64,000 nt of DNA. It comes from Phascolarctobacterium succinatutens (lineage in GTDB: Bacteria; Bacillota; Clostridia; Christensenellales; CAG-917). The notes beneath the pieces are model-generated. The model was not told the origin of the DNA. It searched no databases and saw nothing but the letters and a program-made list of their open reading frames with translations. Shown piece after piece: positions 27,524 through 28,038 of this stretch. The first letter of the stretch is position 1. Every line of letters begins with the position of its first letter. Both the position numbers and the translations under genes were made by a program. The stretch lies in contig CAVBBF010000003.1 in the NCBI GenBank assembly GCA_963593735.1, positions 72-64,071 on the forward strand, given 5' to 3'.

Positions 27524-27552
27524 TTGCAAAATTCATTTTTATATACTATAAT
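27524..27552 (+). promoter_or_regulatory. Near-consensus sigma-70 promoter driving the tRNA-like array and tRNA-Ser
   Basis: TTGCAA (27524-27529), a 17-nt spacer, then TATAAT (27547-27552), about 27 nt upstream of the first repeat module. Confidence 0.65.
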
Positions 27553-27578
27553 AAATCACGCTGACAAATAGTTGCTAC

Positions 27579-27906
27579 GGAAGTGTATCGAAGTGGTCAA
27601 GGCAATACGCACAGCGAGCCTTGAATGCCCACTTCCAAATGCTTACCAGCAATACAATACGGAAGTGTATCGAAGTGGTCAAGGCAATACGCACAGCGTG
27701 CCTTGAATGCCCACTTCCAAATGCTTACCAGCAACACAATAAGGAAGTGTATCGAAGTGGTCAAGGCAATACGCACAGCGTGCCTTGAATACCCACTTCC
27801 AAACGCTTGCCGCCAACACAATAAGGTAGTGTATCGAAGTGGTCAAGGCAGTACGCACAGCGAGCCTTGAATGCCCACTTCCAAACACGCACCGACAACA
27901 TTATAC
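27579..27906 (+). repeat. Tandem array of four 82-bp units. Each unit is a 58-nt truncated tRNA-Ser-like module plus a 24-nt linker.
   Basis: The modules start at 27579, 27661, 27743 and 27825, and the next 82-bp step at 27907 is the real tRNA. The module sequence is GGAAGTGTATCGAAGTGGTCAAGGCAATACGCACAGCGAGCCTTGAATGCCCACTTCC. Its first 21 nt are identical to the tRNA-Ser 5' end. Its 3' end TTGAATGCCCACTTCC resembles the tRNA's TTCGAATCCCACCGCTTCC. It folds with a 7-bp acceptor-like stem (GGAAGTG/CACTTCC) and an internal 7-bp hairpin (TCAAGGC/GCCTTGA). Confidence 0.85.
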
Positions 27907-27997
27907 GGAAGTGTATCGAAGTGGTCATAACGGCCCGCACTCGAAATGCGGTAACGGGGTAACTCGTTCGTGGGTTCGAATCCCACCGCTTCCGCCA
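27907..27997 (+). tRNA. tRNA-Ser (anticodon CGA), class II with a long variable arm, CCA encoded
   Basis: The sequence is GGAAGTGTATCGAAGTGGTCATAACGGCCCGCACTCGAAATGCGGTAACGGGGTAACTCGTTCGTGGGTTCGAATCCCACCGCTTCCGCCA. The anticodon arm is CCGCA-CTCGAAA-TGCGG and the T-arm is GTGGG-TTCGAAT-CCCAC. Confidence 0.9.
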
Positions 27998-28001
27998 ACG
28001 C

Positions 28002-28038
28002 CTGAAACCCTACTGTTTAGTAGGGTTTCAGCGTTTTA
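28002..28038 (+). terminator. Rho-independent terminator after tRNA-Ser
   Basis: The hairpin is CTGAAACCCTACT-gttt-AGTAGGGTTTCAG (28002-28031), followed by CGTTTTA. Confidence 0.75.

What the first reader, a model, noticed from the sequence alone, without database searches (positions are those of the whole stretch)
27524..28038. A promoter-driven tandem array of four truncated tRNA-Ser-like modules, co-transcribed with the genuine tRNA-Ser(CGA)
A near-consensus promoter (TTGCAA-17-TATAAT) is followed by four 82-bp units and then, exactly one more 82-bp step on, the real 91-nt tRNA-Ser and a terminator.

Each unit has a 58-nt module. Its 5' 21 nt are identical to the tRNA (acceptor plus D-arm). 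Its 3' end (TTGAATGCCCACTTCC) is a shortened version of the tRNA's T-arm and acceptor 3' strand.

The module can form a perfect 7-bp acceptor-like stem (GGAAGTG/CACTTCC). This is better paired than in the tRNA itself, where position 6 is a G:U pair. It can also form an internal 7-bp hairpin (TCAAGGC-14 nt-GCCTTGA) that replaces the anticodon, variable and T arms.

The modules differ at 2 or fewer of 58 positions. The 24-nt linkers differ at roughly 9 of 24 positions between the first and last unit. That points to selection, or gene conversion, acting on the structured part.

Known tRNA-linked repeats, such as the E. coli tyrT 178-bp repeats, lie downstream of the tRNA and copy its 3' end. An upstream array of mini-tRNA-like structures is unusual. 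Possible roles include RNase P/CCA-enzyme substrates or decoys, stable tRNA-like sRNAs, or recombination-site scars next to the T4SS island.
Basis: partly seen in the sequence, partly recalled or inferred. Interest (0 to 1): 0.7.

Follow-up and report, generated by a model that had tools for sequence, protein, structure and literature searches.

The report
Decayed tRNA-Ser copies repeated before tRNA-Ser
Four decayed, hairpin-forming copies of a serine tRNA gene sit between that gene's promoter and the gene itself, a layout shared by about two dozen related uncultured gut Clostridia, where it looks like a recombination-driven by-product kept harmless by selection rather than a set of miniature tRNAs.

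Summary
Window 27579-27906 holds four 82-bp units, followed in register by tRNA-Ser(CGA) at 27907-27997. A conserved promoter lies upstream and a hairpin terminator downstream.

The units are degenerate copies of the tRNA plus its leader. The same arrangement, with 1-4 or more copies, occurs in 21 of 22 informative related species and in many gut metagenome strains.

The conserved fold is not a mini-tRNA. It is one long hairpin in which nt 7-19 of the tRNA-derived 5' block pair with the module's 3' arm. The acceptor-like stem is competitive only in the window's own subfamily.

The 5' 21-nt block tracks the cognate tRNA: two lineages with altered tRNA 5' ends carry the same changes in their modules. 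The 3' arm instead tracks the module's own 5' block. Copy number and unit composition differ between strains (0 versus at least 4, 1 versus 2, loss of unit 4).

The array is unrelated to the adjacent T4SS island.

Best reading: a co-transcribed leader array, born by duplication, homogenised with the tRNA by unequal recombination, and selected to stay self-folded. A dedicated RNA function is not excluded. No expression data were available.

The parts
27524..27552 (+). Sigma-70-type promoter: TTGCAA (27524-27529), 17-nt spacer, TATAAT (27547-27552). The start site is inferred at about 27559.
   Evidence: Consensus scan, 10 of 12 matches. The same TTGTTGCAAAA...TATAAT precedes the arrays in other species. 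In the module-free strain L122 it directly precedes the tRNA.
27553..27578 (+). Original leader (AAATCACGCTGACAAATAGTTGCTAC). It resembles the 24-nt linkers, most closely linker 4.
   Evidence: Sequence comparison. The similarity to linker 4 was judged by eye, not scored.
27579..27660 (+). Unit 1: module 27579-27636 (5' block 27579-27599, hairpin 27590-27635) plus linker 27637-27660.
   Evidence: TRF, CM R1 94.9 bits, RNAfold -20.8 kcal/mol, z -3.2.
27661..27742 (+). Unit 2: module 27661-27718 plus linker.
   Evidence: CM R1 97 bits, RNAfold -23.1 kcal/mol, z -4.6.
27743..27824 (+). Unit 3: module 27743-27800 plus linker. This unit type is duplicated in the conspecific contig L132.
   Evidence: CM R1 94.5 bits.
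27825..27906 (+). Unit 4: module 27825-27882 (5' block with A3>T) plus the most divergent linker. This unit is absent from the conspecific contig L132.
27907..27997 (+). Genuine tRNA-Ser(CGA), 91 nt, with CCA encoded.
   Evidence: ARAGORN, Rfam tRNA 49.4 bits.
28002..28037 (+). Terminator-like hairpin (arms 28002-28014 and 28019-28031) followed by TTTT at 28034-28037.
   Evidence: Inverted repeat I4, 13 nt and 100% complementary. Predicted in the transcript fold. Not flagged by the strict scan.

Best explanation
The array is a run of degenerate pseudo-copies of tRNA-Ser(CGA) in the 5' leader of that tRNA's own transcription unit.

Origin (inferred). The segment 'leader + tRNA' was duplicated in tandem. 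The upstream copy then lost most of the anticodon loop, the variable arm and the 5' half of the T arm. What remains is the first 21 nt, an anticodon-stem remnant (CGCAC.GCG), a T-stem/acceptor 3' remnant and a leader-like linker.

Dynamics (shown by comparison). Units are gained, lost and reshuffled by unequal recombination between repeats, including recombination between a module's 5' block and the tRNA's 5' end. This keeps the 21-nt block identical to the cognate tRNA, which is itself under purifying selection.

Structure (shown by comparison and energy). Each module folds on itself as one long hairpin. Its 3' arm pairs with nt 7-19 of its own 5' block. It does not fold as a mini-tRNA.

Function (inferred, least certain). 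The modules are transcribed from the single promoter and are cut away as leader when RNase P matures the tRNA. The hairpin is kept by selection because an exact copy of the tRNA's 5' end, and a strand complementary to it, must stay paired locally or they would compete with folding of the real tRNA. On this view the modules are tolerated, self-neutralising by-products with at most cis effects, not trans-acting RNAs.
For: Distribution.
- 21 of 22 GTDB species that carry this tRNA and have readable upstream sequence carry 1-4 modules between the conserved promoter and the tRNA.
- Further strains came from gut metagenomes.

Derivation.
- Modules share with the tRNA nt 1-21, CGCAC and (A)AT.CCCAC..TTCC.
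- The linkers resemble the leader, judged by eye.

Structure.
- The long hairpin is the minimum-free-energy fold in every subfamily.
- 90.7% of pair cells are standard pairs, against 32-49% in the slid controls.
- Double changes occur at 4 pairs, for example UA 13 / AU 12 and AU 20 / GC 7. No shuffle out of 500 reached the observed covariation score.
- The middle helix is replaced by unrelated sequences in other subfamilies: CATAA/UUAUG in L072 and UGAC/GUCA in L091.
- In L136/L137 the 3' arm is CUUCGAUA and pairs with nt 8-15 instead of CCCAC pairing with nt 15-18.

The 5' block follows the tRNA.
- L091 modules and the conspecific L122 tRNA share GGAAACG...GTCG, three changes relative to the main family.
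- The L136/L137 module and tRNA share GGAAGCG.

The 3' arm does not follow the tRNA.
- L072's tRNA has CCCTC and L122's has CTCAC, yet the modules of L072 and of L091 (L122's conspecific) keep CCCAC, which pairs with their own GUGG.

Turnover.
- 0 versus at least 4 modules in one species.
- 1 versus 2 copies, with recombinant single units, in another species.
- L132, whose neighbouring membrane protein is 98% identical to the window's, lacks unit 4 and repeats unit 3. Its tRNA is preceded by a unit-3 linker.

Co-transcription. There is one promoter-like site and no terminator-like site on the + strand within the array.

Competition for pairing. In the window's one-module construct, scrambling the module's 5' arm drops the predicted tRNA acceptor-stem probability from 0.97 to 0.06.
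Against: - There are no expression or processing data. Co-transcription and removal by RNase P are inferences.
- Retention in 21 of 22 species, and a 3' arm that keeps re-matching the 5' block, could equally reflect a positively selected function.
- The thermodynamic support is weak. In most other subfamilies the equilibrium model predicts a domain-swapped fold even for wild-type module plus tRNA (acceptor probability 0-0.28, against 0.86-0.98 without a module). The 'self-neutralising' idea therefore depends on unmodelled co-transcriptional kinetics and tRNA tertiary structure.
- In the long-hairpin fold nt 1-11 of each module stay single-stranded, so the acceptor-strand copy is not sequestered.
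- Some common polymorphisms break pairs, for example A14 opposite C.
- The species sampled are related, so the covariation counts represent few independent events.
- All sequences are metagenome assemblies, and copy numbers in repeats may be mis-assembled. Several contigs end inside arrays.
Confidence: 0.5

Rival explanations
1. The hairpin modules are a positively selected cis-acting part of the pre-tRNA. They could act as a structured 5' leader that protects or times maturation, for example by offering alternative partners for the tRNA's 5' or 3' acceptor strands, by serving as entry or processing sites for RNase III, Y or P, or by blocking 5' exonuclease.
For: - Near-universal retention in the clade (21 of 22 species) despite demonstrable deletion events.
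- The hairpin is preserved through helix replacement and register sliding.
- Modules are much less divergent than linkers within one array: 0-4 of 58 against 2-9 of 24.
- Equilibrium folding predicts strong competition between module and tRNA, including a fold in which the module's 5' strand forms the acceptor stem with the tRNA's 3' strand.
- Other Clostridia carry unrelated partial 5' copies of tRNA-Ser in the leader.
Against: - A conspecific strain with no modules exists.
- Copy number varies freely between 1 and 4 or more.
- No conserved sequence exists outside the tRNA-derived blocks that would suggest a protein or ribonuclease site.
- No Rfam family matches.
- Retention can also be explained if the last step, from 1 copy to 0, is rare because it can use only about 21-27 nt of identity.
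Confidence: 0.22
2. The modules are released as stable small RNAs that act in trans. Each would have a single-stranded 5' tail identical to the tRNA's acceptor strand plus a hairpin, and would act as decoys or sponges, for example for a tRNA-targeting nuclease, RNase P, or an RNA complementary to the tail.
For: - The layout of a single-stranded tail followed by a stable hairpin.
- The tail always matches the cognate tRNA.
- Multiple copies would amplify dosage.
Against: - Tail identity is fully explained by recombination with the tRNA.
- The modules have no terminator or 3' U-tail.
- No complementary target was found in the 64-kb window apart from the array's own copies, the tRNA and one 1-mismatch site at 28720-28730.
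- A module-free strain exists.
- Nothing comparable was found in the literature searches.
Confidence: 0.1
3. The array is a purely neutral, unstable tandem duplication with no selective constraint. The apparent structure is inherited from the tRNA, or produced by palindrome-templated mutation.
For: - Copy-number and composition polymorphism within species.
- An internal deletion variant, L101.
- Pair-breaking polymorphisms.
- The few independent lineages limit the force of the covariation evidence.
Against: - At genus or family depth (the neighbouring protein is only 64-80% identical) the linkers and helix sequences can no longer be aligned, yet every subfamily keeps a 3' arm complementary to the 5' block. 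This includes a different register in L136/L137 and replaced middle helices.
- Neutral decay of the 3' arm would be expected, because it is not refreshed from the tRNA (L072, L122).
Confidence: 0.1
4. The modules are miniature tRNA-like molecules with an acceptor-like stem plus hairpin, recognised by RNase P, RNase Z or the CCA-adding enzyme.
For: In the window's subfamily the 7-bp GGAAGUG/CACUUCC stem is perfect and only about 1.2 kcal/mol worse than the minimum-free-energy fold. The sequence just upstream of each module resembles that upstream of the tRNA.
Against: - The distinguishing pair G1-C is present in only 17 of 34 comparable modules, whereas G18-C holds in 37 of 37.
- The alternative fold is 5-10 kcal/mol worse in other subfamilies.
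- It cannot form in L091, where GGAAACG has no CGUUUCC partner.
- There is no T loop and no 3' NCCA.
- The modules are not detected by ARAGORN or by the tRNA covariance model at E up to 10.
Confidence: 0.05
5. The array is a DNA-level feature: attachment-site scars of the neighbouring T4SS or integrative element, or an array of protein-binding sites.
For: tRNA genes are common integration targets. The 3' side of this tRNA is indeed an insertion hot spot, and the array's left neighbour in the window is a T4SS island.
Against: - Units are contiguous, with no element between the copies.
- They copy the 5' end of the tRNA.
- They occur irrespective of the island: p1366, sigma and VirB4 homologues are upstream only in the window and L003.
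- No other copy of the 21-mer or of the tRNA 3' end marks a far island border in the window.
- The compensatory pattern fits a hairpin, not a duplex binding site.
Confidence: 0.03

Closest known systems
tRNA-linked repeats of the E. coli tyrT operon (178-bp repeats, rtT RNA).
   Same: Tandem repeats physically joined to a tRNA gene. Each repeat contains a short segment copied from the tRNA, and the repeats are transcribed with it.
   Different: The tyrT repeats lie downstream and copy the tRNA's 3' end. Here the repeats lie upstream in the leader and copy the 5' 21 nt plus internal remnants. They form a conserved hairpin, and the copied block co-evolves with the tRNA across species.
Partial tRNA genes left by integrative elements (attL/attR fragments). 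Described in PMC9897764 and in the Williams 2002 reference cited there.
   Same: Non-functional fragments identical to part of a neighbouring tRNA gene. The same tRNA's 3' side in this clade shows this kind of insertion traffic.
   Different: Integration fragments are single copies separated from the intact gene by a whole element, and they normally duplicate the 3' part. The modules are contiguous 82-bp tandem units lying between promoter and gene, and they are independent of any island.
Pseudo-tRNA 'tRNA-Other' of Bacillus cereus (PMC3399842, abstract seen).
   Same: A tRNA-derived, non-decoding RNA gene next to an island-prone locus, with a possible non-translational role.
   Different: tRNA-Other is a single, full-length tRNA-like gene recognised by tRNA finders. 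The modules are truncated, tandem, not recognised as tRNA, and lie inside another tRNA's leader.
Functional spacer RNAs cut from tRNA precursors (E. coli 3'ETS-leuZ sponge; own knowledge).
   Same: Transcribed spacer of a tRNA unit with potential base-pairing capacity after processing.
   Different: That spacer is a single 3' element with known sRNA partners. Here no partner is known, the elements are 5' and repeated, and they derive from the tRNA itself.
Tandem-repeat antitoxin RNAs of type III toxin-antitoxin systems (ToxI; own knowledge).
   Same: A promoter-proximal array of short structured RNA repeats.
   Different: ToxI arrays precede a toxin gene whose product cleaves them. Here the next gene is the tRNA, no ORF follows within the unit, and the repeats are tRNA-derived.

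Membership tests
Canonical tRNA or tRNA pseudogene (cloverleaf) | Recognised by tRNA detectors or covariance models | tested here: not met
   ARAGORN calls only 27907-27997 in this region. Rfam tRNA matches only the genuine gene, even at E up to 10.
Canonical tRNA or tRNA pseudogene (cloverleaf) | Conserved 7-bp acceptor stem formed by the 5' and 3' ends | tested here: not met
   The stem is possible only in the window-type subfamily. The G1 pair is present in 17 of 34 comparable modules. The fold is 5-10 kcal/mol worse elsewhere and impossible in L091.
Canonical tRNA or tRNA pseudogene (cloverleaf) | Anticodon arm, T arm with T loop, and 3' discriminator plus CCA | tested here: not met
   The anticodon loop is reduced to 3-5 nt. 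The 5' half of the T arm and the T loop are absent, and the stem is followed by AAA, AAC or CAAC, not NCCA.
tyrT-type tRNA-linked repeats | Repeats lie downstream of the tRNA and contain its 3'-terminal segment | tested here: not met
   The repeats lie upstream and carry the 5' 21 nt.
tyrT-type tRNA-linked repeats | Co-transcribed with the tRNA and processed into a discrete RNA | not testable with these tools
   Only a promoter/terminator pattern scan was possible. No transcript data were available.
Integrative-element att-site tRNA fragments | Fragment and intact gene flank a mobile element that carries an integrase | tested here: not met
   Units are contiguous. T4SS-island proteins lie upstream only in the window and L003, while arrays occur in more than 20 other loci. 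No second copy of the 21-mer or of the tRNA 3' end lies elsewhere in the window except the inverted 14-mer at 28040.
Any curated RNA family (Rfam 15) | Match to a family covariance model | tested here: not met
   No match within 27579-27906 on the array (+) strand at E up to 10. Nothing beyond tRNAs and Gut-1 RNA reaches gathering score anywhere in the window.
Type III toxin-antitoxin RNA repeats | Array immediately upstream of a toxin ORF | tested here: not met
   The next feature is the tRNA and its terminator. The ORFs inside the array are frame-shifting artefacts of the 82-nt period, and ORFs were not checked in other species' arrays.
Structured RNA element under selection (generic criterion) | Base pairs maintained by compensatory change across lineages | tested here: met
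   4 of 18 pairs show double changes, 90.7% of cells are paired against 32-49% in slid controls, and no shuffle of 500 reached the covariation score. Helix replacement and register sliding occur in L072, L091 and L136. Caveat: the lineages are few and related.

The most novel reading that the evidence does not exclude
The modules are functional RNA elements whose 5' tail must mimic the cognate tRNA's acceptor strand. Either in cis, by alternative pairing with the tRNA's 3' strand, or after release as tail-plus-hairpin RNAs, they would tune maturation of tRNA-Ser(CGA) or protect it. They might, for example, gate RNase P access or act as decoys for a factor that recognises the tRNA's 5' side. 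That would make this a new class of tRNA-derived leader regulators in gut Clostridia.
Probability: 0.2. Interest if true: 0.7.

Novelty: new variant of a known kind. Interest (0 to 1): 0.42.

Why it matters
If the best reading holds, this is an unusually clean natural case of concerted evolution between an essential RNA gene and its own pseudo-copies. One part of the repeat is held constant by recombination with a selected gene. Another part is forced to co-adapt so that the copy stays folded on itself.

It also matters practically.
- Such arrays break metagenome assemblies; several contigs end inside them.
- They could be mis-annotated as tRNA fragments or integration scars.
- They mark a tRNA locus whose 3' side is a busy insertion site.

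If instead the modules are functional, they would be a new kind of tRNA-derived leader RNA in abundant but uncultured human-gut Clostridia. Natural 0-copy and multi-copy strains are already available for comparison.

Tried and rejected
- **Rfam.** A scan of 26500-29500 at E up to 10, and of the whole window at gathering score, gave nothing for the modules on the + strand.
- **Literature.** Four searches found no description of upstream tRNA-derived leader arrays. One relevant paper on tRNA fragments was read.
- **Acceptor-like mini-tRNA fold.** Counted on the alignment and evaluated energetically. Rejected as the conserved structure.
- **Link to the T4SS island.** Tested with tblastn of island proteins against all loci. 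Rejected.
- **Coding potential.** An 81-aa ORF (27625-27870) runs through three units in three frames only because 82 is not a multiple of 3. It has no Shine-Dalgarno sequence. Conservation in other species was not checked. Rejected.
- **Minus-strand promoter-like sites.** TTGACC-17-TATTGT occurs in each unit. No plausible minus-strand gene lies downstream of them, and their conservation in other species was not tested. Not pursued.
- **Search for a target.** A site complementary to the single-stranded tail was sought in the window. It found the array's own five copies (four modules and the tRNA) plus one 1-mismatch site at 28720-28730.
- **Thermodynamic test of the 'self-neutralising hairpin' idea.** Supportive for the window's units but inconclusive across subfamilies. 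Reported as weak evidence only.
- **Other kinds of partial tRNA-Ser copies in leaders of other Clostridia.** L019, L069, L011 and L004 were folded or inspected. They are heterogeneous and not members of this family.
- **Deeper sampling through homologues of the neighbouring membrane protein.** Synteny is lost below about 60% identity. Some closer homologues (L133-135, 70%) also lack the tRNA, and two contigs end at the locus.
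Full report
**1. What is in the window**

TRF finds a single array at 27576-27927 with period 82, 4.3 copies and 92% matches. Units begin at 27579, 27661, 27743 and 27825. ARAGORN and the Rfam tRNA model place a 91-nt tRNA-Ser(CGA) at 27907-27997, one period after unit 4.

The first 21 nt of the tRNA (GGAAGTGTATCGAAGTGGTCA) recur at each unit start. Units 1-3 match exactly and unit 4 has A3>T. Shuffles expect no occurrences.

A promoter-like TTGCAA-17-TATAAT lies at 27524-27552. A 13-bp hairpin followed by TTTT lies at 28002-28037. 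No promoter-like or terminator-like site lies on the + strand inside the array.

Pairwise, modules differ at 0-4 of 58 positions and linkers at 2-9 of 24.

**2. The array is a family, not a one-off**

A scan of one genome per species for the 21-mer returned 77 loci. Most are plain tRNA-Ser(CGA) genes of diverse Clostridia, each directly behind its own promoter.

The loci that carry the same tRNA as the window are different. They are labelled Christensenella sp., Firmicutes bacterium CAG:238 or CAG:475, and Clostridiales or Clostridia MAGs. Twenty-one of 22 such genomes with readable upstream sequence have 1-4 modules between a conserved promoter and the tRNA. The periods are 67-85 nt, with one of 109 nt. 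Only L060 has none.

A metagenome scan for the module added 44 loci, about 39 of which carry modules, mostly human-gut strains. A covariance model built from the window-type modules finds 39 modules in 22 sources. It finds no module at any other locus in the stretches fetched around those tRNA loci.

**3. Derivation**

Modules keep tRNA nt 1-21. They also keep CGCAC.GCG, which is the anticodon stem with its loop cut down to 3-5 nt. They keep (A)AT.CCCAC, which is the 3' side of the T loop and T stem, and often TTCC from the acceptor 3' strand.

The linkers resemble the stretch between promoter and first unit, judged by eye. The simplest origin is a tandem duplication of 'leader + tRNA' followed by internal deletions. 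This step is inferred.

**4. Structure**

RNAfold gives the same architecture for every subfamily: a single-stranded 5' tail of about 10 nt, then one long, imperfect hairpin. In that hairpin the 3' arm pairs with nt 11/12-18 of the 5' block. A middle helix and an apical CGC/GCG stem follow.

GAAGUG occurs twice in the 5' block, at nt 2-7 and 12-17. The distinguishing pair G1-C is present in only 17 of 34 comparable modules, whereas G18-C holds in 37 of 37.

Energetically, the acceptor-like fold is about 1.2 kcal/mol worse in the window's subfamily and 5-10 kcal/mol worse elsewhere. It cannot form in the L091 lineage.

On the model-guided alignment:
- 90.7% of pair cells are standard pairs, against 32-49% when partners are slid.
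- Four pairs show double changes.
- No shuffle of 500 reaches the observed covariation score.

Whole-helix changes are more telling than single pairs.
- The middle helix is CAAGGC/GCCUUG in the window. It is AUGGC/GCCAU in the L015 type, CAUAA/UUAUG in L072 and UGAC/GUCA in L091.
- In L136/L137 the 3' arm has become CUUCGAUA and pairs with nt 8-15.

So the 3' arm keeps finding a way to pair with the 5' block.

**5. How it evolves**

The 5' block follows the cognate tRNA.
- L091 carries at least 4 modules starting GGAAACGTATCGAAGTGGTCG.
- A contig of the same species was reached through the neighbouring PIN-domain protein, which is 99% identical. Its tRNA-Ser(CGA) starts with exactly that sequence and has a compensated acceptor 3' strand.
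- In L136/L137 both the tRNA and the module start GGAAGCG.

The 3' arm does not follow the tRNA. L072's tRNA has a GAGGG/CCCTC T stem and L122's has GUGAG/CUCAC. Yet the modules of L072 and of L091 (L122's conspecific) keep CCCAC, which pairs with their own GUGG.

Turnover is visible within species.
- L122 has no module, while L091 has at least four.
- About 22 strains of the CAG:475-like species have one or two units, including recombinant single units and one internal deletion.
- L132 belongs to the window's own species: the neighbouring membrane protein is 98% identical. It has the series ...unit 1, unit 3, unit 3, tRNA. It lacks unit 4, and a unit-3 linker abuts the tRNA. That is the expected product of exchange between a module's 5' block and the tRNA's 5' end.

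Together these results show concerted evolution of the 5' block with a selectively constrained tRNA. They also show independent selection on the intramodule hairpin.

**6. Context**

The genes to the left of the array include a VirD4-like coupling protein, a VirB4-like ATPase and a sigma factor. This confirms a T4SS island. Its proteins are upstream of the array only in the window and in L003. The array is therefore not an island scar.

The 3' side of the tRNA is a separate matter. The sequence right after CCA differs between strains of one species. In L089 (checked) it starts an IS3-like transposase gene, and several other loci share the same first bases after CCA. In many loci, the window included, it is a conserved element of about 150 nt bounded by copies of the tRNA's 3' end. 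See the items noticed in passing.

**7. What it most likely does**

Shown:
- tRNA-derived tandem leader units;
- a conserved long hairpin;
- homogenisation of the 5' block with the tRNA;
- copy-number flux.

Inferred:
- transcription from the single promoter;
- removal when RNase P cuts at the tRNA's +1.

Why is the hairpin kept? A module carries an exact copy of the tRNA's 5' end and a strand complementary to it. Either strand, left free, can compete with tRNA folding.

In the window's one-module construct, scrambling the module's 5' arm lowers the predicted acceptor-stem probability from 0.97 to 0.06. Scrambling the 3' arm has little effect, 0.83-0.91.

This support is weak. For most other subfamilies the equilibrium model already predicts a domain-swapped fold for the wild type. 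The argument therefore rests on co-transcriptional folding and on tRNA tertiary structure, neither of which is modelled.

I favour 'tolerated, self-neutralising by-product with at most cis effects' at about 0.5. I keep 'positively selected cis element' at about 0.2 and 'released trans-acting RNA' at about 0.1.

**8. Comparison and novelty**

The closest known things are these:
- tRNA-linked repeats of the tyrT type, which lie downstream and copy the 3' end;
- att-site tRNA fragments (PMC9897764);
- single pseudo-tRNAs such as B. cereus tRNA-Other (PMC3399842).

None has the combination seen here: upstream position in the leader, a tandem layout, a 5' copy, a conserved hairpin, and co-evolution with the tRNA. 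No Rfam family matches, and the literature searches found no description. I class it as a new variant of a known kind, namely tRNA-derived repeats attached to tRNA genes.

**9. Caveats**

- All comparative sequences are metagenome assemblies of uncultured organisms.
- Copy numbers in repeats can be mis-assembled, and several contigs end in arrays.
- The metagenome scan required a module, so the frequency of module-free alleles is known only from the 22 representative genomes.
- The lineages are few and related.
- No transcript data exist.

Noticed in passing
window 28038-28190 (+); also L042, L062, L038/L087, L051, L072, L121, L122, L126; other tRNAs in L066/L106/L116, L079, L129: A conserved structured element of about 150 nt lies right after the tRNA terminator. 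It has invariant CTGACGCTYCG ... CGCTATTACG ... CTACGAA. It is closed by an inverted copy (GCGGTGGGATTCGA, 28040-28053) and a direct partial copy (CGAATCCCA) of the tRNA's 3' end. These end copies co-vary with the cognate tRNA (CCCAC, CCCTC, CTCAC), and the internal hairpins co-vary (8 of 18 alifold pairs). The same element follows other tRNAs, with ends matching those tRNAs. In L051, L121 and L126 it ends in the full tRNA 3' end, like a miniature insertion with a target duplication of about 21 nt. It has no Rfam match above gathering score; only weak chance-level hits overlap it. It could be a minimal att cassette, a small mobile element or an unknown RNA.
   Followed up: partly
L089 259-1407 (-) and the first bases after tRNA CCA in L015, L047, L090, L092, L095, L101, L105, L111, L114, L119, L120: An IS3-like transposase gene (rve, HTH_Tnp_1) begins immediately after the tRNA's CCA in L089 (checked). 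The same first bases after CCA recur in loci from several species. Strains of one species differ in what follows CCA. The 3' side of this tRNA is therefore an insertion hot spot.
   Followed up: partly
window 27306-27321 and 28642-28657; loci L008, L060, L068, L070, L072, L076, L136 versus window, L003, L023: The promoter-array-tRNA segment has opposite orientation relative to the neighbouring 249-aa membrane-protein gene in different species. In some it is divergent from that gene, and in others it lies upstream in the same direction. In the window a 16-nt inverted repeat, 88% complementary, brackets the 1.35-kb segment.
   Followed up: no
window 28489-28528 and 28548-28600: Two short tandem arrays of 12-nt units (TTTTCTGTAACC x3.3 and CATTTACACCGC x4.4) lie in the long non-coding stretch before the membrane-protein gene. 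They look like iterons or binding sites.
   Followed up: no
L010 6631-6976 and L048 8-430: These tRNA-Ser(CGA) copies are interrupted in the T loop (GGGTTCG|GTCGTCTATGACGG...GGCAGT|ATCCCAC) by a structured insert of about 130 nt, which occurs in repeated copies.
   Followed up: no
L019 3580-3830 (Anaerotignum neopropionicum), L069 (3551-3660 on the reverse-complemented locus; about 4340-4450 in stored coordinates), L007, L059, L055, L011, L004, L002: Other Clostridia carry different partial 5' copies of tRNA-Ser in the leader.
- Some are truncated units that keep the anticodon arm.
- Some are units with an insert of about 40 nt in the D loop.
- One is a 5' half followed by a tRNA with a different acceptor stem (L004).
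- One leader is complementary to the tRNA's 5' end (L002).
This suggests that 5' pseudo-copies recur at this tRNA.
   Followed up: partly
window 40425-41132: Three to four dispersed or tandem copies of a repeat of about 45-140 nt (62-91% identity) lie in a non-coding stretch downstream of the ribosomal protein L13 gene. TRF does not call them and Rfam has no match.
   Followed up: no
window 42510-42587 (+): Rfam Gut-1 RNA scores 50.9 bits, just above its gathering score.
   Followed up: no
window 27363-27373 and 27423-27433: The exact 11-mer CTGTCGCCAAA is repeated 60 nt apart, upstream of the array's promoter.
   Followed up: no
window 23165-27265 (+): A 1366-aa protein with no Pfam match closes the T4SS island. 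L003 has a 69% identical homologue at the same position. tblastn shows a second, 24% identical internal match, suggesting an internal duplication.
   Followed up: no
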